Positions 10,712 through 54,608 of a stretch of 64,000 bases of DNA are shown here, piece by piece. The DNA is taken from NCBI GenBank assembly GCA_000004985.1, contig GG738918.1; one strand, written 5' to 3'. Under the pieces are notes generated by a model that worked only from the letters and a program-made list of their open reading frames with translations, was not told the origin of the DNA and searched no databases. Each line of letters begins with the position of its first letter. Position 1 is the stretch's first letter. Both the position numbers and the translations under genes were made by a program. Origin of the DNA: Naegleria gruberi. Its lineage: Eukaryota.

Positions 10712-11194
10712 GATATTTTTTTTAATGTTGTTGTTATTAGTATCCAGTATTTACTAGTTTTCTAGTTTGGTGTGGAATAAAACAAGAAAAGACATGGTTC
10801 AATTATTGTTATTTGTTTAAATTTGAAATATATGTAACGGTTTTCTAAAGTGCCAAGAAATCACCTCGCTTATTAACCGTTTAAAAAAAAATTAATAAAA
10901 ATCTCAACAAAATTAATTACTTCCAGTTCATCATGAGTATTATTATTATTTCCAACTAATTTTAAGTTTAATATTATTTTTCAATTTTCATCATGTAACC
11001 CCACAAGAAGGATAACAACAATTCATGACCACCACCTCCAATTCCGGATGTTACCAACAAACATAGCACGATTACTATTTTACCTCATTCCGAAGATATA
11101 AAGTGTTGCTTGGATATTTATCAACACATCAATCGCACACAAGTTTTTGAAGATACACGATGTCAACAGGACGCTAAACAAATATCATCAAAAA

Positions 11195-14100
11195 ATGTTT
11201 GAAAGTGTTGTTGCCAAAGTATTGACAGCAACTCTTGGTGATTACATTGAAAATTTAGATAAACAATCATTGTCGGTTGGTGTGTGGAATGGTAAATTTA
11301 AACTGACAGATTTGATTGTTAAAAGATCGGCACTTGATTTGTTGGATTTACCTTTTTCTGTTGTGAATGGAACTGTTGGTTTGATTGAAGCTGATATACC
11401 ATGGAAGAGTATTTCAACTTCATCAATTAAAGTTCGATTGAGTGATATCATGTTGGTGGTTCAACCGAGGAGGTGTGAAAAAATTGATGAGACAAGTGAA
11501 AGGAAGAGACAACGAATGGTGAAACAGAGAAAGTTAACACAATATGAATTGAGAAGAAAATCAGAGAATGAAGTTTCGAATGCTGCAAGCCAAGCAACAA
11601 CAACAAATCAAACAGAAGAAACCAATGAAAAGAATGAAAAGAACGAAAAGAAACAAGAAGGATTTGTGTCAAGGTTGACTGAAACCATTATTAATAATCT
11701 TCAGATTGAGATTAATAATATTCACGTTAGATATGAAGATGATTCTGATGAAAGATTCAAAGTGGTTATGGGAGCAACACTTGAATCTCTTTCCATGTCA
11801 AGTTGTGATGTCAATTGGCAGGAATCTTTCTTGGCCACAACAGCAAAAACCTTTTTTAAAAAGCTTACATTGAGAAACTTATCAGTTTACATGAATAATA
11901 ATGAAACTGAATTGTTTTCATTGATGAAGAATGATTTGGATAATAGAAAATTCATTGAACACATGAGAAATATCATTGTGGAGAAGAAGAATTATAGGAG
12001 ATTTGTTTTGAGTCCAGTGAATGGAGAGTTATTGTTATGTATGCAGAAGGATGAAGCTTTGGATTTAGAAAGGCCAAGAATTAGTGCCGAGTTGAGGTTA
12101 GAATCGGTGAATGCAACACTGGACGAAAGGCAGTACAGAAATATTCAGTCAACTCTGGATTATATTACTCAGTTTATGGAAAAACCATTCGATAGACCAA
12201 TGTTTAATTCTCAAAACGAATGTCAACAATATTTATCTCAATCAACGGATGAGAAAGTTACCCAATTCAAAAATTACATGCTCATGTTCAAGAGGAGTAA
12301 GAAAGTGGCCTGGCTACAACCATTAACAAAAGATGAAGCTGAAAAATTATTGGAATTGGAAGATTTCATCCATGTTGATGACATTATGAAACTGAGAGAG
12401 GCAGCTTATCTTGAAATTCAAATTGAGGAACAAAAGTACAAACAAAAGAAGAAGGAATCAAGCTATTGGTCCAAGTGGTTCGGTTCAATTGATAAGACTA
12501 TTGAAGTTACCGAAGAGGATCGAGTGGAATTTTCCAAGCTATTTGGATTGGAAGAAGATAAGGGGCCATCTTTTATTCTTCCTCCACATTTTGTGAATTT
12601 TGCTCTTAAAGTTAAGATTAACACTATTGGAGTCAAGCTAAGGAATGCATCAACCAGAACTGCAGCACCTGATTCGGTTGCAGTATTTGAATTGACTCAA
12701 TTATTGGTCGATTTCAAGTTAAGAGTGGAGGGTTTTAATGTAGAGGTGAGTCTTGGAGGTGTATCCGGAGTTGACAATTTCTCTACAAGAAACGAACAGA
12801 GCATTTCAGAATATTACAACTTTGTCAAAACCAATTCTGTTGGAAATTTTGTCGAGTTTAAAATGGACTCTAATCCTATGAACGGAGTGGAGCAGATGGA
12901 TTGCAAGGTTGGCAATTTGAATGTGGTGTTGAATCTTTCTCTCATTCAAAAGATGTTGTCTATTTTCATTCTACCAAAATATTTACAAAGAAGTCAATTT
13001 ACAGCACCTTCATTACCAGATACTTTGAAAATTACAAAAAAGATACTCAATGCTGAGCTAGATAGTATTAGTGTAATCATTCCTGATACTCTTTCAGGTA
13101 AAGAATACTTTCAAGCTCATTTAGGACATTCTAAATTGACCAAAATTAATGAAAAGATTGATATTTCATTGACACCTATCAAATTGTTACACATTGGAGA
13201 AGCAGAGGATTTCACCATTATTCAGCCAACTGATTTCTCAATTTCTATGGTACAGACAATTGATCAAAATTTAATAGATGTCAAGTCCACTCCATTAATG
13301 GTTGATGTTAATCCTCAAGTGGTGACTCAATTGGTTCGGTTAGGAGATACTGTTTCTCATTTCACCAACAATCCATTCGGTTCTTCAAAGGAGAGTATTC
13401 TCATTGTAAATAATGTGCAAATGAAATTACCAAAACAAGAGGAACTTTCGTCAGCTCATATCCAATTACATGACGATGGTAGATTGTTAGTTTTCAAGGA
13501 AGAATCCAGTTTAGCTCCTTCACACAATATCTATTTCAACACTGTCCAATTCCATACGGAAACTAATAGTTTCAAAGTTGTGGATTTTGAATTTGTGCTT
13601 TCAAATGCAAAAACATTTGAAGAATGGAAGAAAAACTTGGAATCTCTATTGAACAAGAGCATTTCTAAAGCCCCACTTCCACCTGCCATAGAAACAATTG
13701 TAAATTTCAGTCTGGATAGTATCGTACTGAGAGCTCTGAATGATTCTTCATCGAGTGAAGTTGTTGCCATGGCACAAGCTAATGGGCTTCACACAAATGT
13801 ACTCGCGAGACCAAATGATAACCAGGTCAAGGTAACACTCCGAGAAATCACACTCCACGATGGAAATCAAAGAAAAATATTCTTCTCAGATCACAGTACG
13901 AATATTATTGAGATTAGTATTATTCTGTGCTCAAATAAGGAATCTGAATTTGCAAGCCAACATTCTTCTAAAATGTTCCTGAATATCAAGCTTTCAGATA
14001 TGAATTTGATTTTCAATACTGGAATTATCACAAAATTATTCCTATTTTCAAAGAAGATTAATTTTGAAAAGGAAAGTCCTATTGTAATGATTACAGAAGA

Positions 14101-17100
14101 TGATTCAGAGGATATTTTCAAACATGAAATGAAATTACAAGGAGAAATTTCTAAAATCCTTGTCGATTTGGAAAGAGAAGATAGTTCCAAGTTGGCCAAT
14201 TTCTCGCTTTCCAGTTTGAATGTAAATCTTTATATGGGAAAGAATAGTTTATCGTGTGAAGGAGATATTGGTACTGCCTATCTTTCACAACCTAATTCTA
14301 CATCTACTTATCCATATATTCTTTCTCCAAAATATTTGGGCGATCGCTCACTTATTAGATTTGCATACAGTCAAACAGATGATGAGCCAGTAATGAATAT
14401 AGAAAATTCAACCCGTGTTGTAAGAGGTTTCACCGAAAAGAAATCACTAAAGCTTGCAATGGCTTCAATTCAATTCATATTCATCAGCCAATTTATTGAG
14501 GACATTCAGAGTTATTTCCAAGATGGTCCACTATGGGAAGCTTTGGAAAATGGTGGAAAAATGATTAGTGACTATTCAAAAGAATTGATTTCTCAACAGG
14601 ATAAGAAATTGGAAATTATTTCTATGGACATTAAGGTGGAAGATCCAGTTGTTATTGCTCCAATACAAGACAATACTTTCACAGTTCACTTGGGAAATAT
14701 CAGATTAACCAATAAGGGAGACTGGGTTGAGAATGGAATTCCATGTGATAGCTATTCAATGATTTTCAATAGGATGAATTTACAAACTAAAATTAATGGA
14801 ATTGAAAAGACAGTGACTTCTCCATTCAATGTTGCTCTTGGATTGAAAAGAGTTCTCAAGAAGGATCACTTTCCAAGCATGTATTTGGATATTGAAATTG
14901 TACCAAAGGTTTTATTCACTTTGGAACATGCTCAGTATTTACTCTTGTTTCAACTTATTGATTCTTTCAATAAGAAACCAAGCGAAAGTAACGAAAAGAA
15001 ACAAGCAGAAGATTTGGAAAAGAAGGATAGTCTAACACTAATTGCTTTTATTAGAATCAAGTCCTTTGAGTTGGATGTAAAATCAGTAGCTGAGAATACT
15101 GATCTGGCCAAGTTGGAAGTTGAAGATTTCCAAATGAGATATTTCAAAGAACAATCTGGAGACAATATGCAATTCCTTGTCAAATCAATAATTGGAACTG
15201 ATCTAAGAGCTGAAAAGAATGAATATTTCACACAATTTATCACCACTCATTCCAAAACTACCAAGTGCTTGTCAGGTTCAATGATTACAAGAGGAAAGAA
15301 GAATGAAATTTCCCTCCAGATCAATAATCCAATTGTTACAATTATTCCTCAAGTATTTAAGGAGCTGCAAGAGTTCTTCTCCACAATGAAACTTGCTACA
15401 GAACCTCAAGAGGAAAAGAAACCAGAAAAGGAAATTAAGGAAGATGATTTAATGATATCTGTCAAATGTAACGATATTCGTGTAGCTCTTCCTGCCAATA
15501 ATTTCAATCAATTAGCATTCGTAATGAGATGCAAACAATTCTCAATGGAAGATATTCACAATTTCAATATTCATGATTTGGATCTTTCATTCCAAAAGAA
15601 TAGAAACAAATATGATGAGTACACCAACTATATTCTTCATCCAATTAGTTTGAATGTGAGCTATACGGATACTTTAATTATTCAGACAACTAGGGCAATT
15701 AATATTCGTATTTCAACAAGTATTATTCACCAAATTAGACAAGTTATGGACATGTTTACTTCTGAACTTTCCAAAATCAAAAAGACAACTGAAACCAAAT
15801 TGCCACCTTATCAAATTAACAACTTGCCTAATAATAAGGTAGATCTTTCGTATTTCGCTAACTTTTTTGCAAGTTTCAACCAAGAAACCAGATCTGAAAC
15901 CTTTAAATTTGAAGCATATCTAGTGTCAGGAATTTCCATTCTACTTGTCACTGATCGAAATGAAATTGACTTGCCAGCTCTACAACTCGATATTGAACAA
16001 GCGATCATTTCTGATTTCATTAGAATATCCAACATTCAACTATTGTGCTTCAATTTAAACTATGGAGTTTGGGAATCACTTGTGGAACCATTCACAGTTT
16101 CTGGATCTAGAAAAGGAAGCAATTACATTCTTGATATTCCAAAATGTTTATTGAATTTCAATAAGAATACATTCGAAATATTCAAATCTATAATGGAAAG
16201 TAAGGAAAGAAGTGTCATTACGAGAACTTTCTATCCAACAATTGTCAGAAACATGCATCCAACACCAATTACTATTAATGATCAATTACTGGAAGATGGT
16301 CAGGAATATATTGTGCAGGGAGAAGTTTCTTCTATTAGTTTCATTATTAATAATCAAACTTTCGTATTCTCCTTAAAGAAGAAACCAGGAACACATATTC
16401 TATCCTCTGAATGTTTACTCACTGTGGAAATTGTTGATGGAACAAGTTATTTTACCATTCATTCTTTGTATTCCATTGAGAATCAAACAGATGTCACCTT
16501 TGAAGTGTTGTACAATTCGAAACGATGTGGAAAACTTTCACCTAATCAAGTGAAATATCTTCCAAATGCTCCATTTGACAAGACCAATTTGAAAATTAGA
16601 CCATCCTATAGTGACGAGTACATGAGTCCAACATTCGAAGATCAAAATTCATCTCAATTCATCTTTATGAATAAGACTTCCAGTTTCTATTGTGAGTACG
16701 TGGAAGATATTGGACGAAACATGAAAAATTTCACAATTTCTCCACCTCTCAAACTAGAAAATAGAACTCCTATTGAATTGGACATGGAAATTAATGGAAA
16801 GAAATTTTCCTTACAAAAAGAATCCTCACTCTATTACTACTATGCCAATAAGGATTTCTCTGTGAACATTCTGACGAATAATCCTTCATTTAGTGATCAA
16901 TCATTCAGTGCCACAACCAGCAAAACCATGCAAATTTGTACGAATGGTAAAACTATTCCTCAAAAGCAAGAACCTAAAAAATCAAAATCATTTGCTGAGA
17001 TTGTCATTCGTGCACCTTTTTGGATTTTCAATGATTTGGAATTACCTATCAATATTAATGGAATTAATATTCTACCATTCAATTATACTACTATGAACAT

Positions 17101-19360
17101 CAATAATTTGACCATTTGTAGAGATGATAAAAACAAATTTACACCTAATTTGGATAAAATTCCACATGATACCATGGATTTGTGGAAATTAGGAGATAAA
17201 AGAATGGTTTACTATTTGAGAGAAACTGATGAGAGTAAATACATGTACCTCAGAGAAAGATATTACATTAGAAACAATACCAAATTTGATTTAAACATTA
17301 CTTTCGAGAAGAATTCATTCTCAGTCGCTGCAGGAAAGACACAACCTTATTCACATTACAATGATTCACTTCCTAAAATGAAAATCACTTTGGGAGAAGA
17401 GGAAAATATTGTGGAAACTAAATGTCAACAGGAATTGTCACTCAAATTTGGAAAATTCCTAAATGCCAAGCTTTTACTTAAGGAACAGGAAGGTTCAATG
17501 TTTGTGGTGATTAATGAAATACTATTGCCTGAATTTTACGTGGTCAACTCTACAGATTTGGAAATTGTAATTGATAAGGAAGGATTAGCTCCAAAAAATA
17601 TCAAACCCTATCTCAACATGCCCCAATCTGTTATAATTGACACCATTTCAGAGATTATCACCCTTAATAAGATTACAATGAATAAGGAAACAATGAAAAA
17701 GGTTGGAGATGAAGAAATTTATTACACACTCATTCCATATCAACAAGTAATCATTCTCCACATTCACAAAAAGAAAAAGACTGAGGAGAAGGATTATGAA
17801 CTGGCAGTAGATGTTACTTTCTATTCTATTGGAATTTCGATTATTGGTGAAAGTCAGGAATTGGCTTTTATTCATTTTGATCAATTATTTACTAAATTTG
17901 GAATGCTCAATACTCAATTTTGCGTTTATACTAAATTGCGTGGACTCCAAGTTGACGATCACAATGAACAAGAGGTCAACCCAGTTCAATTTGTGAATAT
18001 CAATTCTTCAGAGCAGAGTTTCATTGAATTTACAATAGAAAAGAATGGAAACTATTTTGAAACTGTTTCAGTAACTATCAGAGAAATGTTATTTAGCTCT
18101 AACAATATTTTCATTCAAAAGATGAGTGACGTATTCGCAAGTGCCATGAAACAAATGAAAGCAGTCCAAGAAACAAAACTAAATCAATTCTTGCAATATT
18201 TTGAAGTAGAGGAAAGTGAGAAAATGTTCTTTGGAAAGTTTGAACTCAATCCATTGAAAGTCGATGCTTCTTTCAAGGTGAAACCTTCCAATGATTTGAA
18301 ATACGATTTGGTTTATATTCTTTCCTCTTATGGAACTAAATTTACACACATTGAAAATGCCATAATTAGAATTTACGATTTCAAACTTCCTCAATCCTCA
18401 TTCGTTACCATGCAAGATGTTATGGAAAGAGTTGGAAAACACTACAAACGTCAAATCAAGTACAATTTATTGTCAATTATTGGATCGTTGAATACTTTTG
18501 GAAGTCCTATTCAATTATTTGGTGATTTGGCTTCAGGAGTTACTTCTCTATTTTATGAACCTGCAAATGCCATCACTGAAGGCCCACATATGTTCTTATT
18601 GGGTGTTGGTAAGGGATCTGTTGGATTTATTTCAAATTCTGTCAAGGGAGTAACTGGTTTCACATCAACAATTACAGGAACAGTTGGAAATACGCTTTCA
18701 ATCTTTACACTTGACAGAGATTTCGTCGAGAAGAGAGACAGGATTATGGAAAGGAAACCTGCCAATATTTTCCAAGGTATTGGACAAGGTATGCAAGTTC
18801 TCTTCACAGGACTCATTGATGGAGGTGTTGGAATTATTGCTCAACCAATTAAGGGAGCTAGAAAAGAGGGAGCTTTGGGATTGGCTAAAGGAGTTGTTCT
18901 TGGAATTGTTGGAATTCCTACAAAGCCAGTAGTTGGTATGATTGATTTTAGTATCAAGCAAATGCAAGGTATTCGAAACTTTAATCAATCATCACTTCAC
19001 AAAATTAGAGAAAATCCAAGAATGTTATTTAACGGAGTGATTAAACCATACAAGGAAAATATGGAATTGTTTTTGAGATTAATCCACAAATCCCAACAAT
19101 CAATAGAGTTTAATATTTTAATTCCTTTAGGAAAGACCTTGGCAATCACCAACAGACATTTGCTCATTCCACAATCAACCAACTCTAATGCACTTCAGGT
19201 TGTTGAATTGAATCAAGTGGAAGCTATTGAACAAGTAGATGATGATAATGTCAAGATTAGAGTGGCAAATCAAACAAGTTATTGTGTTTATTTGAATGTG
19301 GAGGCAGCTACTGTTCGTGCCTTGGTTGATAAGATGTTACGTGAGTTGAGTACTAATTAA
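11195..19360 (+). CDS. VPS13: VPS13-family bridge-like lipid transfer protein (chorein N-domain to VPS13/ATG2-type C-terminus), single exon
   Basis: The N-terminus MFESVVAKVLTATLGDYIENLDKQSLSVGVWNGKFKLTDLIVKRSALDLLDLPF matches the chorein-N motif of VPS13. The C-terminal region DLASGVTSLFYEPANAITEGP...GVGKGSVGFISNSVKGVTGF matches the VPS13 C-terminal (ATG_C-like) segment. It is a ~2720 aa uninterrupted ORF. The ATG at 11195 is chosen over the track start at 11147. Confidence 0.85.
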   Translation: MFESVVAKVLTATLGDYIENLDKQSLSVGVWNGKFKLTDLIVKRSALDLLDLPFSVVNGTVGLIEADIPWKSISTSSIKVRLSDIMLVVQPRRCEKIDETSERKRQRMVKQRKLTQYELRRKSENEVSNAASQATTTNQTEETNEKNEKNEKKQEGFVSRLTETIINNLQIEINNIHVRYEDDSDERFKVVMGATLESLSMSSCDVNWQESFLATTAKTFFKKLTLRNLSVYMNNNETELFSLMKNDLDNRKFIEHMRNIIVEKKNYRRFVLSPVNGELLLCMQKDEALDLERPRISAELRLESVNATLDERQYRNIQSTLDYITQFMEKPFDRPMFNSQNECQQYLSQSTDEKVTQFKNYMLMFKRSKKVAWLQPLTKDEAEKLLELEDFIHVDDIMKLREAAYLEIQIEEQKYKQKKKESSYWSKWFGSIDKTIEVTEEDRVEFSKLFGLEEDKGPSFILPPHFVNFALKVKINTIGVKLRNASTRTAAPDSVAVFELTQLLVDFKLRVEGFNVEVSLGGVSGVDNFSTRNEQSISEYYNFVKTNSVGNFVEFKMDSNPMNGVEQMDCKVGNLNVVLNLSLIQKMLSIFILPKYLQRSQFTAPSLPDTLKITKKILNAELDSISVIIPDTLSGKEYFQAHLGHSKLTKINEKIDISLTPIKLLHIGEAEDFTIIQPTDFSISMVQTIDQNLIDVKSTPLMVDVNPQVVTQLVRLGDTVSHFTNNPFGSSKESILIVNNVQMKLPKQEELSSAHIQLHDDGRLLVFKEESSLAPSHNIYFNTVQFHTETNSFKVVDFEFVLSNAKTFEEWKKNLESLLNKSISKAPLPPAIETIVNFSLDSIVLRALNDSSSSEVVAMAQANGLHTNVLARPNDNQVKVTLREITLHDGNQRKIFFSDHSTNIIEISIILCSNKESEFASQHSSKMFLNIKLSDMNLIFNTGIITKLFLFSKKINFEKESPIVMITEDDSEDIFKHEMKLQGEISKILVDLEREDSSKLANFSLSSLNVNLYMGKNSLSCEGDIGTAYLSQPNSTSTYPYILSPKYLGDRSLIRFAYSQTDDEPVMNIENSTRVVRGFTEKKSLKLAMASIQFIFISQFIEDIQSYFQDGPLWEALENGGKMISDYSKELISQQDKKLEIISMDIKVEDPVVIAPIQDNTFTVHLGNIRLTNKGDWVENGIPCDSYSMIFNRMNLQTKINGIEKTVTSPFNVALGLKRVLKKDHFPSMYLDIEIVPKVLFTLEHAQYLLLFQLIDSFNKKPSESNEKKQAEDLEKKDSLTLIAFIRIKSFELDVKSVAENTDLAKLEVEDFQMRYFKEQSGDNMQFLVKSIIGTDLRAEKNEYFTQFITTHSKTTKCLSGSMITRGKKNEISLQINNPIVTIIPQVFKELQEFFSTMKLATEPQEEKKPEKEIKEDDLMISVKCNDIRVALPANNFNQLAFVMRCKQFSMEDIHNFNIHDLDLSFQKNRNKYDEYTNYILHPISLNVSYTDTLIIQTTRAINIRISTSIIHQIRQVMDMFTSELSKIKKTTETKLPPYQINNLPNNKVDLSYFANFFASFNQETRSETFKFEAYLVSGISILLVTDRNEIDLPALQLDIEQAIISDFIRISNIQLLCFNLNYGVWESLVEPFTVSGSRKGSNYILDIPKCLLNFNKNTFEIFKSIMESKERSVITRTFYPTIVRNMHPTPITINDQLLEDGQEYIVQGEVSSISFIINNQTFVFSLKKKPGTHILSSECLLTVEIVDGTSYFTIHSLYSIENQTDVTFEVLYNSKRCGKLSPNQVKYLPNAPFDKTNLKIRPSYSDEYMSPTFEDQNSSQFIFMNKTSSFYCEYVEDIGRNMKNFTISPPLKLENRTPIELDMEINGKKFSLQKESSLYYYYANKDFSVNILTNNPSFSDQSFSATTSKTMQICTNGKTIPQKQEPKKSKSFAEIVIRAPFWIFNDLELPININGINILPFNYTTMNINNLTICRDDKNKFTPNLDKIPHDTMDLWKLGDKRMVYYLRETDESKYMYLRERYYIRNNTKFDLNITFEKNSFSVAAGKTQPYSHYNDSLPKMKITLGEEENIVETKCQQELSLKFGKFLNAKLLLKEQEGSMFVVINEILLPEFYVVNSTDLEIVIDKEGLAPKNIKPYLNMPQSVIIDTISEIITLNKITMNKETMKKVGDEEIYYTLIPYQQVIILHIHKKKKTEEKDYELAVDVTFYSIGISIIGESQELAFIHFDQLFTKFGMLNTQFCVYTKLRGLQVDDHNEQEVNPVQFVNINSSEQSFIEFTIEKNGNYFETVSVTIREMLFSSNNIFIQKMSDVFASAMKQMKAVQETKLNQFLQYFEVEESEKMFFGKFELNPLKVDASFKVKPSNDLKYDLVYILSSYGTKFTHIENAIIRIYDFKLPQSSFVTMQDVMERVGKHYKRQIKYNLLSIIGSLNTFGSPIQLFGDLASGVTSLFYEPANAITEGPHMFLLGVGKGSVGFISNSVKGVTGFTSTITGTVGNTLSIFTLDRDFVEKRDRIMERKPANIFQGIGQGMQVLFTGLIDGGVGIIAQPIKGARKEGALGLAKGVVLGIVGIPTKPVVGMIDFSIKQMQGIRNFNQSSLHKIRENPRMLFNGVIKPYKENMELFLRLIHKSQQSIEFNILIPLGKTLAITNRHLLIPQSTNSNALQVVELNQVEAIEQVDDDNVKIRVANQTSYCVYLNVEAATVRALVDKMLRELSTN

Positions 19361-19674: not shown

Positions 19675-21060
19675 TTAGAGTTTTGACAAATAAAGTTGAT
19701 TGTGTTCTCCAAGTAATGGTCCAAATTCATTCATAGGTTGTAACTCCTCTGATTGATTTCCACTGACAGTCAGTTGAATTGATTTGTAATCGAGTGCATT
19801 CTTCACCAAATTGCTGGAAGTCAACATGTTTCGTTGTTGTAATAATTCTCTATCGACCTCTTTCAATTTTCTCACTTTTGTAATTGGCAATTTCAAATCA
19901 AAAGCAAAAATCTTCTCCCACTCCTCGGCGCTCTTTTGCTCGAGCACTTTAACAATTCTCTGTTTCAATTTCGAATCATTGGAAAAGAGAAATTCAACAG
20001 TTGTAAATTGTTTCCATGAATCTTTTGGATTTTCCTTATCGTGAACACTCAAAGCTTGAATAAATCCACTCCAAAAATGTGGTTCCAAACATCCAACAGC
20101 TAATTGTCCAGATTTTGTTGGATAGATATTATATCCAAGAATGGATCCACTTAAAACACTTCGTCCTTCACTTGCCATCTTGTCAAAACCATTCAATGTC
20201 AAGGAAAGTGGCATTTGAATTGCAGAAATGGCATTATCAAACATGGAAATATCAATAACTCGATTCATTCCTCTCAAGATTCGTTCTCTTTCTTCTGTAG
20301 ATTTTACAGAATAATTTAAAGCTTCAATTTTTCTAACCATGGCCACAACTTGCAAAGCAGAGCTGTAACCTGTCAATACATCAGACAATTGAATAGGCAG
20401 TGGTTTCAATTGCTTGTTCTTTTCACTCACATCTCCAGCAACATCAAATACACCAGCAGATCCAACAGCATTCATATCATGAGCTGGAATATCCGAATAC
20501 TTTCCAATATCTTGTCCGAAAGCAGAAATCCTACAAATTATCAATTGCAAATTCTCCTCCAACAATTCCTCAATCTTTCCAACACCCAATAAGCTTTCCA
20601 ACTTTCCAGGTCTTGAACTATCAATCAAAACCTTCACAGCCTTTCTCCTCTGATCGCCATCATCATTATCATTGGAATAACAACAAATTAATCGTTTCAA
20701 CTCTTCTACGTGTTGCTTCTTTTTAAAATTCAACGAAATGGCCTGTTTTCCTCTATTAAAACAATGATAAATTAATCCCGATGATGATGATTTCCCAATT
20801 TCATCATTATTTAAATTATTATTTAAATTATTATTTAAATTATGACGATCGGAAGAAGAAGAAGGCTTCTTATTGGAAATTTCAGCCTTCTTCTTCATCA
20901 TCATTGTATTAGTAGTAATAGTTGTAGAATTATTAATTAGTGGAGGATAATATCTTGTTGGATCACCACCATTGGATTCATCTTCAATTTTAATGACAAG
21001 TGCTCCGAGATCGGACAAGAGTTGGCCATAGAGGACCAGGATAGAGGCGAGAAAGATCAA
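19675..21060 (-). CDS. CoA-transferase family III (CaiB/BaiF, alpha-methylacyl-CoA racemase-like) protein with a low-complexity Asn-rich insertion
   Basis: The N-terminus LSDLGALVIKIEDESNGGDPTRYYPP matches the family III motif (LADLGAEVIKIE..GD.TR). Other matching segments are LIDSSRPGKLESLG, ICRISAFGQDIGKY and DVLTGYSSALQVVAMV. An NNLNNNLNNNLNN insert is encoded by a 12-bp repeat. Confidence 0.75.
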   Translation of the reverse strand: MIFLASILVLYGQLLSDLGALVIKIEDESNGGDPTRYYPPLINNSTTITTNTMMMKKKAEISNKKPSSSSDRHNLNNNLNNNLNNDEIGKSSSSGLIYHCFNRGKQAISLNFKKKQHVEELKRLICCYSNDNDDGDQRRKAVKVLIDSSRPGKLESLLGVGKIEELLEENLQLIICRISAFGQDIGKYSDIPAHDMNAVGSAGVFDVAGDVSEKNKQLKPLPIQLSDVLTGYSSALQVVAMVRKIEALNYSVKSTEERERILRGMNRVIDISMFDNAISAIQMPLSLTLNGFDKMASEGRSVLSGSILGYNIYPTKSGQLAVGCLEPHFWSGFIQALSVHDKENPKDSWKQFTTVEFLFSNDSKLKQRIVKVLEQKSAEEWEKIFAFDLKLPITKVRKLKEVDRELLQQRNMLTSSNLVKNALDYKSIQLTVSGNQSEELQPMNEFGPLLGEHNQLYLSKL

Positions 21061-21164
21061 AAACTTGAATATTGGAGAGCATTTAATGTTGTGATATTTT
21101 TTTTTAATATTAAATAGTGTATTGTAAAGTATTTAATCTTTACAAAGATCAATTTTTCTTTTCT

Positions 21165-22187
21165 CTAAAGTTGAGACACTTCCAAATCATAGGTATCAGT
21201 AGATTTCAATAACAGGAATGAAATACAGAAACAACAGTTATAATTTGGTCTCACCCGATAGGTATTTCCTGTTTTTTTCAGTTTCACCAATTTGTTTCTT
21301 ACAATCCACTCAGAAACATCTCTATTACAACATAATAAACTGAAAAGCAAACCAATAAACACTGCATCAATCAAGAAGAGGAACAATAACACTAAACCAC
21401 TTGGTAATAATCCTATGAATAGTGGATAATCAATTTCTGGTTTGTAAAGATAGAGTTGATAAATTTCAACTCCACTCTTAGAGCTATATGATGTCATTTT
21501 ACATTTGAGAGCTCCATCTTGATTTTTTTCCTTAATACATTCAGGGACATTGCATTCATATGAAAATACAGTGGGATATTGTATTTTGCTTTCTCTAAGT
21601 TTAACATAATAGAAATATTTCAGTCTTGTTGGGATACTATCAAACATACATCCAATACTTGTTGAGCTATTATTCGGTTGACAACATGGAAGAGTATTAA
21701 AATTATTACAACTCGAATTCCAATTAGTGTTGCATTCCACACATTCTGGATACGAAACCCTTCCAATAGTACTGTTCAAAACTTGAACAGAAGAAACAAT
21801 CCTCTCACAATCATTGAACGAACTCTCTACATGACTCGCAGAACCTAAAGCCAAGCCAAGACCTCCAACCAATAACAACATCCCCAGAATCACAACAAAT
21901 AGTAAACAAGCTGTATAAAAACAGTTGCACTCAGTAGCATATCTCATACTGTTGACAAGTCTGTCCGTGTTTTGTTCCTCGCGGTTTCGTTTGATTTCAA
22001 CTTTTTCTTCATATTCAATCCTTTTCTGATTCCAAAATTTTGGCTTTTCCGTCTCAAAAATTGAATAACATTGCCTATTGATATGTGAAAATGATGAATA
22101 ACTACTCGGAGTAATAAATTCAAGAATAATTGTCAGCTCATCATCATTTAATTTGTGAAAATTTCCCTTCACTTGCTTTCTTGTCAT
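21165..22187 (-). CDS. F-box-like N-terminus + TM + Cys-rich ectodomain + C-terminal TM protein (paralog 1 of inverted pair)
   Basis: 340 aa. It contains ELTIILEFITPSSYSSFSHINRQCYSIFE (F-box-like), a hydrophobic helix LLFVVILGMLLLVGGLGLAL, many Cys (CVECNTNWNSSCNNFNTLPCCQPNNSS) and a C-terminal TM. Confidence 0.6.
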   Translation of the reverse strand: MTRKQVKGNFHKLNDDELTIILEFITPSSYSSFSHINRQCYSIFETEKPKFWNQKRIEYEEKVEIKRNREEQNTDRLVNSMRYATECNCFYTACLLFVVILGMLLLVGGLGLALGSASHVESSFNDCERIVSSVQVLNSTIGRVSYPECVECNTNWNSSCNNFNTLPCCQPNNSSTSIGCMFDSIPTRLKYFYYVKLRESKIQYPTVFSYECNVPECIKEKNQDGALKCKMTSYSSKSGVEIYQLYLYKPEIDYPLFIGLLPSGLVLLFLFLIDAVFIGLLFSLLCCNRDVSEWIVRNKLVKLKKTGNTYRVRPNYNCCFCISFLLLKSTDTYDLEVSQL

Positions 22188-23168
22188 TTTTTTTCACAAG
22201 TTTGAACTCTACAGACCATGACAGGAGATCTTCACTTCAACAGTCAAAGAGAGAATTTCTTGTTTTGATTAATGTAGTTGTAATTTTTGAATTATCATAA
22301 TAAAATTACTGATTGTCACATGCTCAATTTACTCCTTGACTCAAACTATTCTTTGATTATTCGAATTTTGAATGTTTCGAACTCATCCATAAATTGTTCC
22401 CAATCATTTTACAATCCTTATTTTAAATCCAATCCCTCAAATTCAGTTGAAATGATGCGTGATAATAGATCATCATACGGATTTAACACTCTCACAACAA
22501 TAACAACATGAAAAAATCAACAAGTTAGGCTACTAATAATAATAATACACTATCAAAAGGTGCCACTTCAACCATTAATAATATATGTCCTTCAAAATCA
22601 AGTACCACAACAACAACCACTGCTCCATCTCCCACTCCTTTATGAATAAGAGAAAAATCTAAAACTTCTTCATCAAATCTTCATACAAAACAATATTCAA
22701 AACAATCCATTCAAAAAAATAATCTTAATAAGTTATCAAGGCTTCCGTTGGATTGTATTTTTTATATGTTAGAATTTGTTGGTCAATATTCAAATACAAC
22801 CAAAGGCTAATAAGAATAATAAGGAAATGTTAAATGATTCAAAGATTTATTGGAATTTATTAAAGATTGGTTCGGAAGATTTTCATAAACCAAAAAAATT
22901 TCCAATTTAATAGAGTGGATCAAATATATCTTGAAACATTGAATTATATAGTTACCGTTGATTTTAAAATTTGGAAATGGAAATATTCAATGCATAGGAA
23001 GATTTTCACGTGGCTAGATTTCTGTTAAAATCTTCATACCACTACCCTAACAAAACAAGAAATTCTCTCTTTGACTCTTGAAGTGAAGAAGATTGTCAAT
23101 CTCCTAGCATGGTCTATTAAGTTCAAACTCATGGTGTTGTGTTGGTTCAAACTTGGTGTGAAAAAAAA

Positions 23169-24197
23169 ATGACAAGAAAGCAAGCGAAGGGAAATTTTCA
23201 CAAATTAAATGATGAGCTGACAATTATTCTTGAATTTATTCCTCCGAGTAGTTATTCATCATTTTCACATATCAATAGGCAATGTTATTCAATTTTTGAG
23301 ACGGAAAAGCCAAAATTTTGGAATCAGAAATGGATTGAATATGAAGAAAAAGTTGAAATCAAACGAAACCTCGAGGAGCAAAACATGCACAGAATTGTCA
23401 ACACTATGAGACATGCTGCTGAGTGCAACCTTTTTTACATGGTTTTGCCTTTATTAATAGTTACGATTCTGGGGATGTCGTTATTGGCAGGAGGTCTTGC
23501 CTTGTCTTTTAGTTCTATGAGTCATGCAGAGAGTTGGTTTAAGGATTGTGAGAGAAATGTTTCATCTATTCAAGTTTTGAACAGTACTATTGGAAGGGTT
23601 TCGTATCCAGAATGTGTGGAATGCAACACTAACTGGAATTCAAGTTGTAATAATTTTAATATTCTTCCATGTTGTCAACCGAATAATAGCTCAACAAGTA
23701 TTGGATGTATGTTTGATAGTATTCCAACAAGAGTGAAATATTTCTTTAATTTTACAGTTAAAGATTACAAAGAAATGCATTATTCTTCAGTTTTTTCATA
23801 TGAATGCAATGTCACTGAATGCATTAAGGAAAATTATCAAGATGGAACTCTCAAATGTAAAATAACCTCATATAATACTAAGCGTGGATCATTTTATCAA
23901 CTATATGTATACAAGCCAGAAATTGATTATCCACTGTTTATAAGATTATTACCCAGTGGTTTAGTTTTATTGTTCCTTTTCTTGATTGATTTAGTGTTTA
24001 TTAGTTTGCTTTTCACTTTATTTATCGGGTTTACTTGTAAGAGAGACATGTTTGGATGGATTGTAAGAAACAAATTGATGAAATTGAAAAAAATAGGAAA
24101 TACCTATAGGGTGAGGCCAAGTTGTTGTTGTTTCTGTATTTCATTCCTGTTTTTGAAATCTACTGATACCTATGATTTAGAAGTGTCTCAACTTTAG
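23169..24197 (+). CDS. Paralog 2 of the F-box-like/TM/Cys-rich protein (inverted duplicate of 21165..22187)
   Basis: About 80% identical protein (MTRKQAKGNFHKLNDELTIILEFIPPSSY...). The ATG at 23169 is preceded by an A9 run. Confidence 0.6.
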   Translation: MTRKQAKGNFHKLNDELTIILEFIPPSSYSSFSHINRQCYSIFETEKPKFWNQKWIEYEEKVEIKRNLEEQNMHRIVNTMRHAAECNLFYMVLPLLIVTILGMSLLAGGLALSFSSMSHAESWFKDCERNVSSIQVLNSTIGRVSYPECVECNTNWNSSCNNFNILPCCQPNNSSTSIGCMFDSIPTRVKYFFNFTVKDYKEMHYSSVFSYECNVTECIKENYQDGTLKCKITSYNTKRGSFYQLYVYKPEIDYPLFIRLLPSGLVLLFLFLIDLVFISLLFTLFIGFTCKRDMFGWIVRNKLMKLKKIGNTYRVRPSCCCFCISFLFLKSTDTYDLEVSQL

Positions 24198-24338
24198 AGA
24201 AAAGAAAAATTTGGCACCTGCTATTCTTATGTGATCAACTCTTCTACAATTTGGTCCATATGATCAGAGAGAGTGCATGATTATTGTAGTTACAACATAA
24301 GATTCTGAACTTAATAAAAAAGAAAGAGATAAATTATT

Positions 24339-25400
24339 TTAATGTATTAGTGCTTCATCTTCAAAATCAATCAATTGAATACAAATGGTTGGTTCAAGAT
24401 CTGAAAGTTGTACATTTTTCTTCACTCCATGCAAACCCAATCGTACTGAATGGTAAAAATTGCCTGGAAGTGAAGTTTCCCTTGATTTTGAAGTGGCAAC
24501 GAACACAGAATTTTCATTTGAATTCATTGCCATTTCCTCTCTTTTCAACATTGTTTTAATTTCCTTAACAGTCGATTCAAGCTTGCTCGATTTGTTGAAC
24601 CAAGTGGAAAATAATTGTCTATAGATGGCAGTGCATGGTTTTTGAATCTGATTCTTGACATGGTGGTATTGCATCATTGTAAAGAGGGAAGCTCTAGTTG
24701 GTTGTTGGTAATACGAAATGTCAGTATCAAAGCAGAATTTCTTCTTTTCATTATTCCACTTGAGAGTGATGGTGTAGACTGTATGTTGATATTTACATGG
24801 TGATTTACAATAAGATCTATTCAATTCTGATTCTATAGAGTCAGTGGTAGACCCAGAGCTTGAATTGTGACTAGTTTCGAATAGAAAATCTTCATTGTGT
24901 TGAGGCGATATCGAACCAATCGAATCGTCCACATTCCACAACGTGGTCATTCCACAATTTCTCTGCACAATCTCCTCCTGTATATCCTCAAACGATGAAG
25001 ATCTCGAAGAGGACTTTGAGTTGACCACCGGAGTATTCATTAAGGAACAACTCCTACCAACTCCTTCATTCATATTCAAAATTGCATGATTCATTGTGAA
25101 TTGAAACTGTTCCTCTCCATCCAACCTCATCATGTTTAAATTCTCTTCATGTTGACCATTCGATAATATTTGATTTTGTAAATTTCCCGCCACCACAGAT
25201 GAACCCGAATAGGAAGAGGAAACATTGTAAATTCTATTCATTGTCCCCGAGTGCTGGTAATCGCTTGATTTACGTTTCATTTGAGAGTGAGTTTGAGTTT
25301 GGCGCTTTTCTAGCCGTAGATTTTCAGTCCTTTTTTTCAGGTTGAAAAAAGATAAAAATAGGTGAAAGCGGGAAGATTTTATTGGATTTTGCAGTGTCAA
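24339..25400 (-). CDS. Hypothetical Ser-rich protein
   Basis: 353 aa ORF with no recognisable domain. Codon usage is consistent with its neighbours. Confidence 0.35.
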   Translation of the reverse strand: MTLQNPIKSSRFHLFLSFFNLKKRTENLRLEKRQTQTHSQMKRKSSDYQHSGTMNRIYNVSSSYSGSSVVAGNLQNQILSNGQHEENLNMMRLDGEEQFQFTMNHAILNMNEGVGRSCSLMNTPVVNSKSSSRSSSFEDIQEEIVQRNCGMTTLWNVDDSIGSISPQHNEDFLFETSHNSSSGSTTDSIESELNRSYCKSPCKYQHTVYTITLKWNNEKKKFCFDTDISYYQQPTRASLFTMMQYHHVKNQIQKPCTAIYRQLFSTWFNKSSKLESTVKEIKTMLKREEMAMNSNENSVFVATSKSRETSLPGNFYHSVRLGLHGVKKNVQLSDLEPTICIQLIDFEDEALIH

Positions 25401-25873
25401 CTGTTTGGACTTGTTGGGGATGTGATAACACTTCTTAGAGAACTAATGGTGGCACACGAAGGAACTTGTTAGGAAACTGATTGAAATTATCAAGACGTGC
25501 AATTGTTATTTTCATTTTTATTTTGTCAAGTGTTCTTCTTGTCAATAGTTCATTCAAAAATTCATCATCATCATGAATTTATTAAATTATAATTACCAAT
25601 TCTCGGAGAACATTAAAACTGTAGATAATGAGCAAATAGAGTGAAAATGATTTTTATTAATATCTTTCAAAGAGATGATTCTATTTCACTCTTGAACATG
25701 ATGTGAATTTTAACTTTGAACATGTATCACCATATCTTCATCTTCATCTACCAACTCGTGAATTCATATTAAAAATAGATTTCAAAGATAATTTGCTTCA
25801 AAAATCTTCATCATGATTCGGAAACTATTATTAAACAATAAGAAAAAAACAATTAATAATACACAATAGTAAG

Positions 25874-26435: not shown

Positions 26436-27599
26436 TCACTTATCCTTCACAATTTCATTGTAACCTATATCAAGTGATGTTAACTGTTTCATTTCACTAA
26501 TGAATTTGACTCCTTCATCACCAATTTGATTTCCACCAATATAAAGTGATTTTAATTGTTTCATTTCACTTATGAATTTGGCTCCTTCAATACCAATTTG
26601 ATTGTTATAAATATTAAGTGATATTAATTGTTTCATTTCACTTATCAATTTGGCTCCTTCATCACCAATTTGATTTCCACCAATTTCAAGTGATGTTAAT
26701 TGTTTCATTTCACTTATTGGTATGACTCCTTCAACACCAATTTCATTTCCACTAATATCAAGTGATGTTAATTGTTTCATTTCATTTATAAATTTGGCTC
26801 CTTCATCACCAATTTGATTGTTATAAATACTAAGTGATTTTAATTGTTTCATTTCACTTATGAATCTGGCTCCTTCGGCGCCAATATGATTGTTATTAAT
26901 ACTAAGTAATGTTAAATGTTTCATTTCACTTATAGATTTGGCTCCTTTATCACCAATTCTATTGTTATTAAAATCAAGTGATGTTAATTGTTTCAGTTCA
27001 CTGATTGATTTTACTCCTTCATCACCAATTCCATTTCCACTAATATCAAGTGATGTTAAATGTTTCATTTCATTTATGAATTTGACTCCTACAACACCAA
27101 TTCGATTGTAACCTATATCAAGTGATGTTAATTGTTTCATTTCACTTATAAATTTGGCTCCTTCATCACCTATTCGATTTTCGCTAATATCAAGTGATTT
27201 TAATTGTTTCATTTCAGTTATGAATTTGACTTGTATAGAGTCAAGCAACCTTCTAGAAAATTTAAGATTAACAATACTATTCATAAATTGGCTTTTCATG
27301 CATAATTCAATCCTTGTTTCTGTAAATTTTTGTTTAAATTTAATAACAAGTTTTGAACGTTCCTTGATCACATTAAAGAATTGTTTTGAAATCAAGGAAC
27401 AATTATTCAAAATAAACCACGAATCATCAATCATGGAAATTATTTCAAAACAAACATCATCTGAAAATATTTCTTGTTCAAGCTTGACAACTTTTACTTT
27501 CCCTTCCATGTTAGTATTATTATTATTGATCATGAATAGCTCTTCCGAAATTAGTTGCTTTTCAAAATCTTGTCTTTGTTTACTCATTTTTTTTGGCAA
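26436..27599 (-). CDS. F-box-like + RNI-type LRR protein (paralog of 4102..5199), ~11 24-aa repeats
   Basis: 387 aa. The same N-terminal module (FSDDVCFEIISMIDDSWFILNNCSLISKQFF) and EMKQLTSLDI..N.IG.EG.KFI repeats are present. Confidence 0.7.
   Translation of the reverse strand: MPKKMSKQRQDFEKQLISEELFMINNNNTNMEGKVKVVKLEQEIFSDDVCFEIISMIDDSWFILNNCSLISKQFFNVIKERSKLVIKFKQKFTETRIELCMKSQFMNSIVNLKFSRRLLDSIQVKFITEMKQLKSLDISENRIGDEGAKFISEMKQLTSLDIGYNRIGVVGVKFINEMKHLTSLDISGNGIGDEGVKSISELKQLTSLDFNNNRIGDKGAKSISEMKHLTLLSINNNHIGAEGARFISEMKQLKSLSIYNNQIGDEGAKFINEMKQLTSLDISGNEIGVEGVIPISEMKQLTSLEIGGNQIGDEGAKLISEMKQLISLNIYNNQIGIEGAKFISEMKQLKSLYIGGNQIGDEGVKFISEMKQLTSLDIGYNEIVKDK
26440..27240. repeat. 72-bp coding tandem repeats (LRR units) inside gene 26436..27599
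   Basis: Periodic ...tgtttcatttcacttat... units are visible in the DNA. Confidence 0.7.
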
Positions 27600-54535: not shown

Positions 54536-54608
54536 GCCCCGCTAGCTCAGTCGGTAGAGCGTTGGACTTTTAATCCAACGGTCGTGGGTTCGAGCCCCAC
54601 GTGGGGCG
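54536..54608 (+). tRNA. tRNA-Lys (anticodon UUU), 73 nt, no intron
   Basis: Acceptor stem GCCCCGC/GTGGGGC (one G-U pair). D-arm GCTCAGTCGGTAGAGC. Anticodon stem-loop TTGGA-CTTTTAA-TCCAA. T-arm GTGGGTTCGAGCCCCAC. Discriminator G. Confidence 0.9.

What the first reader, a model, noticed from the sequence alone, without database searches (positions are those of the whole stretch)
21140..24215. Inverted duplication of an F-box-like/TM/Cys-rich gene including promoter and 3' flanks
Two ~1 kb genes face away from a ~0.8 kb unique spacer. The duplicated arms include the 5' and 3' flanks, which match in reverse complement. The encoded proteins combine an F-box-like N-terminus, a TM helix, a Cys-rich probably extracellular module and a C-terminal TM helix. 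That combination is unusual, because F-box domains are cytosolic adaptors. The proteins are ~80% identical, so the copies are diverging. Palindromic duplications like this are hotspots for gene conversion and rearrangement.
Basis: seen in the sequence. Interest (0 to 1): 0.5.

Follow-up and report, generated by a model that had tools for sequence, protein, structure and literature searches.

The report
Head-to-head duplicated Naegleria membrane-protein gene
This is a real inverted duplication of a lineage-restricted Naegleria gruberi gene for a two-pass membrane glycoprotein with a weak F-box-like N-terminus; both copies are already annotated, so it is a tidy but ordinary case of young paralogues evolving in concert.

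Summary
Two arms (about 21151-22281 and 23037-24211) match in reverse complement at 88.5% DNA identity around a unique 755-nt spacer. Each arm carries one intact, outward-transcribed ORF; the proteins are 78% identical.

The window is Naegleria gruberi NEG-M. The genes are the annotated neighbours NAEGRDRAFT_74842 and NAEGRDRAFT_74843.

An independently assembled environmental contig, 95% identical, shows the same order: right-copy 5' end, spacer, left copy, CoA-transferase. An assembly artefact is therefore unlikely.

Both NEG-M copies look coding:
- All six CDS indels are multiples of 3.
- dN/dS is 0.58.
- All 10 loop cysteines are conserved.

Divergence is patchy. dS is about 0 over the first 60 codons, and mismatches are clustered (P<=0.002). 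Two characters are shared by both copies within a strain but differ between strains. Together these indicate arm-to-arm gene conversion. In the environmental strain the left copy carries two disabling lesions.

The F-box call stays sub-threshold (Pfam 11.9-19.3 bits against a 20.5 cutoff, and no Leu-Pro). The predicted N-in/loop-out/C-in topology places that module in the cytosol, so the architecture holds no paradox. Only about 14 nt of 3' flank are duplicated.

A search of 1.8 billion proteins found one distant relative with the same layout. Interest is low.

The parts
21151..22281 (-). Left arm of the inverted duplication (1131 nt). It comprises about 14 nt of 3' flank, the CDS and about 95 nt of 5' flank.
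   Evidence: Inverted-repeat segments I1-I9 and pairwise alignment A1. Identity is 88.5% over 1066 ungapped columns.
21165..22187 (-). Left gene, 340 aa plus stop. It is NAEGRDRAFT_74842 (XP_002670212.1, UniProt D2W0F8, named 'F-box domain-containing protein').
   Evidence: ORF. Exact-sequence look-up. Pfam F-box 15.8 bits, E=0.014, residues 11-51. TM helices at about 90-116 and 256-286, 10 loop Cys and 4 N-glycosylation sequons.
22282..23036 (.). Unique spacer (755 nt, 27.5% GC) between the two divergently transcribed copies. Together with the duplicated 5' flanks it forms the 981-nt intergenic region between the two start codons.
   Evidence: No second copy in the window. No Rfam or tRNA hit. 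Homologous along its length to environmental contig L001; the 741-nt block covering most of the spacer plus the left 5' flank is 82% identical.
22509..22915 (+). Conserved block inside the spacer. It reads as a broken ORF (stop codons and a frameshift) in both strains. It may be a relic of an older paralogue's N-terminal module.
   Evidence: About 92% identical to L001, with the same frame break in both strains. The frameshift-corrected peptide aligns in register with the arm proteins' N-terminus (shuffle P=0.003). There is no Pfam hit. This evidence is weak.
23037..24211 (+). Right arm of the inverted duplication (1175 nt). Relative to the left arm it has 28-nt and 10-nt insertions in the 5' flank.
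   Evidence: The 28-nt insertion is bounded by the direct repeat GTTCAAACT.
23169..24197 (+). Right gene, 342 aa plus stop. It is NAEGRDRAFT_74843 (XP_002670168.1, UniProt D2W0F9).
   Evidence: 100% identical to P0001 over 342 aa. Pfam F-box 11.9 bits, E=0.23. Two TM helices, 10 loop Cys and 7 sequons.
22023..22194 (-). Near-identical inner tract of the left arm (97-99% to right-arm 23162-23333). It covers the start codon and the F-box-like module. dS is about 0 here, so this is the probable recent gene-conversion tract.
   Evidence: Sliding identity and an 89-nt perfect tract at 22111-22023. There are 0-1 synonymous differences in codons 1-60. The G/A site at codon 28 is shared by both copies within each strain.
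21634..21787 (-). Second high-identity tract (96-97%). It covers the core of the Cys-rich loop (codons about 135-185, ...GRVSYPECVECNTNWNSSCNNFN.LPCCQPNNSSTSIGC...).
   Evidence: Perfect tracts of 64 and 60 nt. dN is about 0 in this stretch.

Best explanation
SHOWN. The locus is a genuine head-to-head inverted duplication in Naegleria gruberi. One ancestral gene, with about 100 nt of its 5' flank and about 14 nt of its 3' flank, was copied in reverse orientation. The result is the annotated neighbours NAEGRDRAFT_74842 and NAEGRDRAFT_74843, which are transcribed away from a 755-nt unique spacer. Both copies are intact coding genes in strain NEG-M and are under weak purifying selection.

The arms do not diverge uniformly. 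The inner end (5' flank plus the first 60 or so codons) and the core of the Cys-rich loop are 96-99% identical. Elsewhere identity is about 80-87%.

INFERRED. This mosaic reflects repeated arm-to-arm gene conversion, that is, concerted evolution. The pair is partly redundant, and one copy has been disabled in a related environmental strain.

INFERRED. The protein is a two-pass membrane glycoprotein. A cytosolic N-terminal three-helix module, a divergent F-box or a look-alike, occupies residues about 10-50. TM1 follows at about 90-116. Next comes an extracellular or luminal loop of about 135 residues with 10 conserved cysteines (up to five disulfides) and 4-7 N-glycosylation sequons. TM2 lies at about 256-286. 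The basic cytosolic tail carries a Cys cluster that could be palmitoylated.

The most likely working model is a membrane-anchored adaptor. Its cytosolic N-terminal module would recruit a partner, Skp1/SCF if it is a true F-box, to a membrane site defined by the fast-evolving ectodomain.
For: Duplication:
- Searches give 88.5% DNA and 78% protein identity in reverse complement.

Identity of the genes:
-.

Not an artefact:
- Environmental contig L001 (ENA ERZ929261, 3031 nt) is collinear with window 23326 to 20276. It runs from the right-copy 5' end through the spacer and left copy into the CoA-transferase gene. The flanking blocks are 95% identical and the block covering most of the spacer is 82%.

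Coding status:
- 6 of 6 CDS indels are multiples of 3, whereas the 5'-flank indels are 28 and 10 nt.
- dN/dS is 0.58, from 31.5 synonymous and 77.5 nonsynonymous differences.
- All 10 loop cysteines are conserved.

Conversion:
- Permutation P=0.002, 0.00025 and <5e-5 for the three longest perfect tracts.
- dS is about 0 in codons 1-60 against 0.2-0.5 elsewhere.
- Two characters are identical in both copies of a strain but differ between strains: a G/A site and a 2-nt indel.

Decay of one copy:
- In L001 the left copy lacks 56 nt including the ATG and has a 1-nt deletion in TM2.

Topology:
- Two Kyte-Doolittle peaks above 2.4.
- Sequons and 10 Cys that are identical in both copies lie between them. 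The few other Cys lie in or next to the TM segments and in the tail.
- K/R-rich tail.

F-box-like module:
- F-box is the top Pfam family, in register, for three family members at 15.8, 11.9 and 19.3 bits.
- UniProt names D2W0F8 an F-box protein.
- The AF2 model has helices at 15-24, 27-36 and 38-46.
- The module is the only part conserved with the distant relative P0003: 66% over 38 aligned columns by hhalign (96.6% probability) and 62% over 42 aa by tblastn.
Against: - All F-box scores are below Pfam's 20.5-bit cutoff.
- The hallmark Leu-Pro is Leu-Asn in all three sequences.
- A profile search of PDB sequences found no F-box protein.
- The full-length AF2 model is unusable, with pLDDT 40.
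- No expression data could be consulted.
- The patchy identity could partly reflect uneven protein-level constraint rather than conversion. However, this does not explain the missing synonymous differences.
- L001 is a single short-read metagenomic contig. It ends 158 nt into the right copy, so it does not show the whole palindrome, and its lesions could in principle be assembly errors.
Confidence: 0.8

Rival explanations
1. Assembly artefact: a single gene, or two alleles, wrongly laid out as a palindrome in the NEG-M scaffold.
For: The source genome cannot be re-examined at read level here. Inverted repeats are a known trouble spot for assemblers.
Against: - The arms differ at 123 of 1066 aligned positions and by eight indels (six in the CDS, two in the 5' flank), with a codon-structured pattern.
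- An independent metagenome assembly from another sample has the same right-start, spacer, left-copy, CoA-transferase order.
- The two copies have different unique flanks: the CoA-transferase gene on one side and the 24339-25400 ORF on the other.
Confidence: 0.03
2. The N-terminal motif is not an F-box. On this reading the proteins are simply lineage-specific two-pass membrane glycoproteins with a family-specific cytosolic helical motif, and they have no link to SCF ubiquitin ligases.
For: - Pfam F-box scores are below the cutoff.
- Leu-Pro is replaced by Leu-Asn, read directly from the sequence.
- There is no F-box hit in the PDB profile search or in Foldseek.
Against: - F-box is the best Pfam family for all three members, over the full 43-position profile and in the same register.
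- The more divergent member, P0003, scores highest at 19.3 bits.
- The predicted three short helices fit the F-box pattern.
- UniProt's automatic annotation calls D2W0F8 an F-box protein.
Confidence: 0.4
3. One or both copies in NEG-M are decaying, non-functional duplicates. On this reading the high nonsynonymous divergence reflects drift on the way to pseudogenisation rather than retained function.
For: - dN/dS is 0.58 overall, and above 1 in the linker/TM1 segment.
- The left-copy orthologue in the environmental strain carries two disabling lesions.
- No homologue exists outside this lineage among 1.8 billion representatives, apart from P0003.
Against: - Both NEG-M ORFs are complete over 340 or more codons in a 32% GC sequence.
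- All six indels are in frame.
- All 10 loop Cys and the core loop are conserved.
- My own chi-square calculation from the counts gives about 6.3, P about 0.01, for synonymous exceeding nonsynonymous divergence per site.
Confidence: 0.15

Closest known systems
Inverted (palindromic) segmental gene duplications with arm-to-arm gene conversion, as described for many eukaryotic genomes, e.g. sex-chromosome palindromes (own knowledge)
   Same: Two arms lie in reverse complement around a unique spacer. Each arm carries a gene. Identity is patchy, the best-preserved tracts include synonymous sites, and some states are shared within a strain.
   Different: The scale is tiny: arms of 1.1 kb and one gene per arm. 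The arms are about 11% diverged rather than more than 99% identical, so conversion is partial or episodic. No function specific to the palindrome is implied.
F-box proteins (Pfam PF00646), the substrate receptors of SCF ubiquitin ligases
   Same: An N-terminal module of about 40 residues gives F-box as the best Pfam hit, in register, in three family members. Three short helices are predicted. The module is predicted to face the cytosol.
   Different: All scores are below the curated cutoff. The Leu-Pro motif is absent. No recognised C-terminal substrate-binding domain (LRR, WD40, Kelch) is present. Instead there are two TM helices and a Cys-rich glycosylated loop. Skp1 binding is untested.
Arabidopsis CFB (AT3G44326) and its two paralogues: F-box proteins whose only other recognised feature is a transmembrane domain (PMC5853388)
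   Same: An N-terminal F-box is combined with membrane anchoring and no known interaction domain. In CFB the TM domain is required for membrane-fraction localisation and the F-box binds ASK1. This shows the combination is not paradoxical.
   Different: CFB has one predicted C-terminal TM helix and no Cys-rich extracytosolic loop. No sequence similarity to the Naegleria proteins was detected. It belongs to an unrelated lineage.
P0003, an unannotated 254-aa protein on environmental contig L002 (same metagenome, ERZ929261)
   Same: It is the only other relative found among 1.8 billion representatives. It shares the N-terminal module: 66% identity over 38 aligned columns by hhalign and 62% over 42 aa by tblastn. 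It also has the same order of parts: TM, Cys/N-glycan-rich loop, TM, C-terminal Cys.
   Different: The loop and TM regions cannot be aligned with the window proteins. It has no long cytosolic tail. Its source organism is undetermined, and no NEG-M orthologue was found.

Membership tests
F-box domain (PF00646) | Profile match at or above the curated gathering score (20.5 bits) | tested here: not met
   Scores are 15.8 bits (left copy), 11.9 bits (right copy) and 19.3 bits (P0003). F-box is nevertheless the top family and the matches are in register with profile positions 2-43.
F-box domain (PF00646) | Conserved Leu-Pro at the start of the motif, followed by a hydrophobic heptad-like pattern (own knowledge of the family consensus) | tested here: not met
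   All three sequences read L-N-(D/F)-D-E-L rather than L-P-x-E-(I/L) (alignment A4). The downstream hydrophobic pattern (IILEFI...F..IN..CYSI) is retained.
F-box domain (PF00646) | Three-helix fold resembling solved F-box domains | tested here: inconclusive
F-box domain (PF00646) | Binding to Skp1 and assembly into an SCF complex | not testable with these tools
   This needs a pull-down, a two-hybrid assay or a confident co-fold with Naegleria Skp1.
Inverted (palindromic) gene duplication | Two homologous arms in reverse-complement orientation around a non-repeated spacer, far beyond chance | tested here: met
   Arms of 1131 and 1175 nt are 88.5% identical and the spacer is 755 nt. tblastn gives E 1e-164 or better. 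The spacer is unique in the window.
Inverted (palindromic) gene duplication | The arrangement is present in an independent assembly, so it is not an artefact | tested here: met
   L001 from ENA metagenome ERZ929261 is collinear with window 23326 to 20276. It covers only the first 158 nt of the right CDS, so support for the far end of the right arm is lacking.
Inverted (palindromic) gene duplication | Arm-to-arm gene conversion (concerted evolution) | tested here: met
   Mismatches are clustered, with P=0.002 and 0.00025. dS is about 0 in codons 1-60. One substitution and one 2-nt indel are shared by both copies within each strain and differ between strains. The sample is small, with only two informative characters.
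Two-pass (hairpin) membrane glycoprotein, N-in/C-in | Two hydrophobic segments of TM length, with glycosylation sequons and paired cysteines confined to the intervening loop and positive charge on the cytosolic side | tested here: met
   Kyte-Doolittle peaks are 2.4-2.9 at about 84-118 and 252-291. The loop carries 10 conserved Cys and 4-7 sequons. The tail has 9-10 K/R against 4-5 D/E. This is prediction only, with no dedicated topology predictor or experiment.

The most novel reading that the evidence does not exclude
The pair belongs to a previously undescribed, fast-evolving family that may be restricted to Naegleria and its relatives. Its members would be two-pass transmembrane F-box receptors. 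An extracellular or luminal disulfide-rich, glycosylated loop would sense a ligand (prey, symbiont, pathogen or mating cue). The cytosolic F-box would couple that event directly to SCF-dependent ubiquitination. Duplication, conversion and loss would reflect an arms-race dynamic like that of the expanded F-box families of nematodes and plants.
Probability: 0.12. Interest if true: 0.55.

Novelty: new member of a known kind. Interest (0 to 1): 0.2.

Why it matters
The main value is as a clean, small example of palindrome-style concerted evolution and copy loss in a free-living heterolobosean. It is supported by a second strain recovered from a metagenome.

If the N-terminal module were shown to be a working F-box, the family would be a rare case of an SCF substrate receptor with a real extracytosolic domain. 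That would be of interest for how protists link surface recognition to ubiquitination.

As it stands, both genes are already annotated hypothetical proteins and nothing about the locus challenges current understanding.

Tried and rejected
- **Full-length AlphaFold2 model from the two-sequence alignment.** pLDDT was 40, so the model was unusable for fold search.
- **Profile of the N-terminal module against PDB sequences.** Only spurious hits to designed repeat proteins appeared. The full-length profile against PDB gave no hit.
- **Word-indexed protein search with the N-terminal alignment.** It returned nothing, not even the queries, and so was uninformative.
- **JGI metagenome scans.** Back-translated peptides and a 33-nt perfectly conserved DNA word both gave no further loci.
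- **Exact-product look-up of both window proteins.** No record was found, so no further assemblies of the locus could be fetched.
- **Literature search.** Searches for the locus tags, accessions and the metagenome project returned nothing. Searches for phrases such as 'transmembrane F-box' also returned nothing.
- **Mobile element, RNA gene or repeat in the spacer that might have mediated the inversion.** Rejected: there is no Rfam or tRNA hit, no repeat elsewhere in the window, and only weak low-complexity tandem repeats.
- **Left copy unannotated.** I first suspected this because one search listed only the right copy. One search shows the left copy sits in a cluster represented by the fragment P0002, so the idea was rejected.
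- **Pfam Hanta_Gc_C hit.** Its E-value is 0.027 and it spans TM2. It was rejected as a hydrophobic-segment artefact.
Full report
**1. The observation**

A repeat search of 20000-25500 returns nine collinear inverted segments, I1-I9. Together they cover 21151-22267 and 23051-24211. A pairwise alignment of the left arm with the reverse complement of the right arm extends the similarity to about 22281 and 23037.

Over 1066 ungapped columns there are 123 mismatches, which is 88.5% identity. The arms are 1131 and 1175 nt long, and the spacer (22282-23036) is 755 nt. The spacer is 27.5% GC and has no second copy anywhere in the window.

Each arm contains one complete ORF pointing away from the spacer:
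- left: 21165-22187 (-), 340 aa
- right: 23169-24197 (+), 342 aa

The proteins are 78% identical by BLASTP. No further paralogue exists in the 64 kb.

Two details need trimming:
- The duplicated 5' flank is about 95-130 nt and is broken by 28-nt and 10-nt indels.
- The duplicated 3' flank is only about 14 nt beyond the stop codon.

**2. Where it comes from**

The right protein is 100% identical to NAEGRDRAFT_74843 of Naegleria gruberi. The left protein is NAEGRDRAFT_74842, UniProt D2W0F8, which UniProt names 'F-box domain-containing protein'. Both lie on a 222-kb contig.

The neighbourhood is ordinary N. gruberi gene space:
- a CoA-transferase family III gene at 19675-21060 (-), just beyond the 3' end of the left copy
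- LRR_6 repeat proteins
- a DUF4116 protein
- a methyltransferase
- a G-alpha fragment
- one tRNA-Lys

The two genes are therefore already annotated as adjacent hypothetical proteins. I found no paper that mentions them.

**3. Is it an assembly artefact?**

An exhaustive HMMER search of 1.84 billion representative proteins found only two relatives. One is a 164-aa fragment, P0002. It lies on a 3031-nt contig (L001) of ENA metagenome ERZ929261.

L001 is collinear with window 23326 to 20276:
- the first 158 nt of the right CDS plus its upstream region, at 95%
- a block covering most of the spacer and the left 5' flank, at 82%
- the whole left copy and the start of the CoA-transferase gene, at 95%

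This is an independent assembly from a different, roughly 5%-diverged strain, and it shows the same head-to-head layout. The arms also show codon-structured divergence and have different unique outer flanks. Together these make an artefact very unlikely. The caveat is that L001 stops 158 nt into the right copy.

**4. Are the copies real genes?**

Three lines of evidence say yes for strain NEG-M:
- All six indels inside the CDS are 3 or 9 nt, whereas the two indels in the 5' flank are 28 and 10 nt.
- Nei-Gojobori counts give 31.5 synonymous and 77.5 nonsynonymous differences, so dS=0.177, dN=0.102 and dN/dS=0.58. My own chi-square on these counts is about 6.3, P about 0.01. Constraint is therefore weak but real.
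- All 10 cysteines of the loop are conserved in both copies.

Constraint is uneven. dN/dS is about 0.4 in the loop, TM2 and tail. It exceeds 1 in the linker and TM1, although those counts are small.

**5. Concerted evolution**

Identity along the arms is mosaic:
- 97-99% over 22023-22175, which covers the start codon and the first 55 or so codons
- 96-97% over 21623-21772, the loop core
- 94% at the 3' end
- 79-87% elsewhere

The longest perfect tracts (89, 64 and 60 nt) are longer than in shuffled mismatch patterns, with P=0.002, 0.00025 and <5e-5. Codons 1-60 have 0-1 synonymous differences, against dS of 0.2-0.5 further on. Protein-level constraint alone does not explain that.

Both copies can be compared in both strains over the inner tract. 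There, a G/A site at codon 28 and a 2-nt indel in the 5' flank are each identical in the two copies of a strain but differ between strains. This is the signature of arm-to-arm gene conversion after the strains split. It rests on only two characters.

Polarising the left-copy differences with the right copy as outgroup gives 17 changes on the NEG-M branch and 7 on the L001 branch. Eight of the 17 cluster in codons 107-134. That pattern fits a conversion tract in one strain but does not prove it.

**6. Loss in a second strain**

In L001 the left-copy orthologue lacks 56 nt that include the ATG and the first 16 codons. It also has a 1-nt deletion in TM2 that ends the frame at ...LFIGLFPVA*. Two independent lesions point to a pseudogene there, which fits redundancy between the copies. 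A single short-read contig cannot fully exclude errors.

**7. The protein**

Kyte-Doolittle analysis finds two strong hydrophobic segments, at about 84-118 and 252-291. Between them lie 10 cysteines that are identical in both copies and all the N-x-S/T sequons, 4 in the left copy and 7 in the right. The tail after TM2 is basic (9-10 K/R against 4-5 D/E) and carries a CCFC or CCCFC cluster.

The simplest topology is N-in, loop-out, C-in. That places the N-terminal module in the cytosol, where an F-box would have to be. Arabidopsis CFB is a documented F-box protein with a functional membrane anchor that binds ASK1 (PMC5853388).

The loop matches nothing in Pfam or among PDB sequences. The full-length AF2 model is unusable, with pLDDT 40.

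**8. Is the N-terminus an F-box?**

For:
- F-box is the best Pfam family for the left copy (15.8 bits, E=0.014), the right copy (11.9 bits) and the distant relative P0003 (19.3 bits, E=0.001).
- Each hit spans almost the whole 43-position profile in the same register.
- UniProt's pipeline labels D2W0F8 an F-box protein.
- An AF2 model of residues 1-68 predicts three short helices at 15-24, 27-36 and 38-46 (pLDDT 64).

Against:
- Every score is below the 20.5-bit cutoff.
- The hallmark Leu-Pro is Leu-Asn in all three sequences.
- Neither a PDB profile search nor Foldseek finds an F-box.

Verdict: a plausible divergent F-box, with membership not established.

**9. The family**

P0003 (254 aa, contig L002, same metagenome) shares the N-terminal module. 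Identity is 66% over 38 aligned columns by hhalign (96.6% probability, E=7e-10) and 62% over 42 aa by tblastn. It repeats the layout of TM, Cys/N-glycan-rich loop, TM and terminal Cys, but the rest cannot be aligned. No NEG-M orthologue of it was found.

So the family is tiny and fast-evolving, and the N-terminal module is its only stable element. Scans of JGI metagenomes found nothing more.

**10. The spacer**

No RNA gene, tRNA or dispersed repeat is present.

One block, about 22509-22915, is roughly 92% conserved with L001, against 82% for the block covering most of the spacer. It reads as the same broken ORF in both strains. After correcting the shared frameshift, its peptide (...NKLSRLPLDCIFYMLEFVGQYSNTTKANKNNKEMLNDSKIYWNLLK...) aligns in register with the arm proteins' N-terminus (shuffle P=0.003). 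It has no Pfam hit. It may be a relic of an older paralogue. The evidence is weak and the peptide was constructed after the fact.

**11. Verdict**

This is a real inverted gene duplication that is already annotated at the gene level. It shows clear signs of partial concerted evolution and of copy loss in a related strain. It encodes a lineage-restricted two-pass membrane glycoprotein with a sub-threshold F-box-like cytosolic head.

It is a new member of known kinds: a palindromic duplicate and a possible membrane-anchored F-box protein. It is not a new kind of system. Interest is low (0.2). The only route to higher interest is experimental proof that the head binds Skp1.

Noticed in passing
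window 22509-22915 (+), inside the spacer: This block is about 92% conserved with environmental contig L001, against 82% for the block covering most of the spacer. It reads as the same stop- and frameshift-broken ORF in both strains. The corrected peptide (…LSRLPLDCIFYMLEFVG…YWNLLK…) aligns in register with the N-terminal module of the arm proteins (shuffle P=0.003) but has no Pfam hit. It may be a relic of an older paralogue.
   Followed up: partly
L001:1100-2260 (orthologue of window 21100-22230): In the environmental strain the left-copy orthologue lacks 56 nt including the ATG. It also carries a 1-nt deletion in TM2, which suggests a pseudogene there. The visible 158 nt of the right copy are intact.
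   Followed up: partly
L002:1348-2112 (+), protein P0003: This is a 254-aa unannotated protein from the same metagenome with the same layout: F-box-like head (19.3 bits), TM, Cys/N-glycan loop, TM. It can be aligned with the window proteins only over 42 N-terminal residues. It sits next to Ras-family genes. Its source organism is undetermined and no NEG-M orthologue was found.
   Followed up: partly
window 23131-23158 (right-copy 5' flank): The right arm has a 28-nt insertion relative to the left arm, bounded by the direct repeat GTTCAAACT. It looks like a slippage duplication just upstream of the start codon. It is present in both strains' right copies.
   Followed up: no
window 11147-19360 (+): A single uninterrupted 2737-aa ORF lies just beyond the CoA-transferase gene that neighbours the left copy. 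It is a very large intron-free gene and I did not characterise it.
   Followed up: no
window 4102-5199 (-) and 26436-27599 (-): Two proteins are built almost wholly of LRR_6 repeats with near-identical units (…ISEMKQLTSLDI…). Neither gives a Pfam F-box hit even though the N-terminus looks similar by eye.
   Followed up: no
window 20806-20843: A perfect 12-nt tandem repeat (3.2 copies) lies inside the CoA-transferase ORF. It encodes the NNLNNNLNNNL low-complexity insert.
   Followed up: no
window 54536-54608 (+): A single tRNA-Lys (anticodon UUU) is the only Rfam or ARAGORN hit in the 64 kb.
   Followed up: no
window 24339-25400 (-): A 353-aa ORF lies tail-to-tail with the right copy and has no Pfam match. 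It marks the unique outer flank of the right arm.
   Followed up: no
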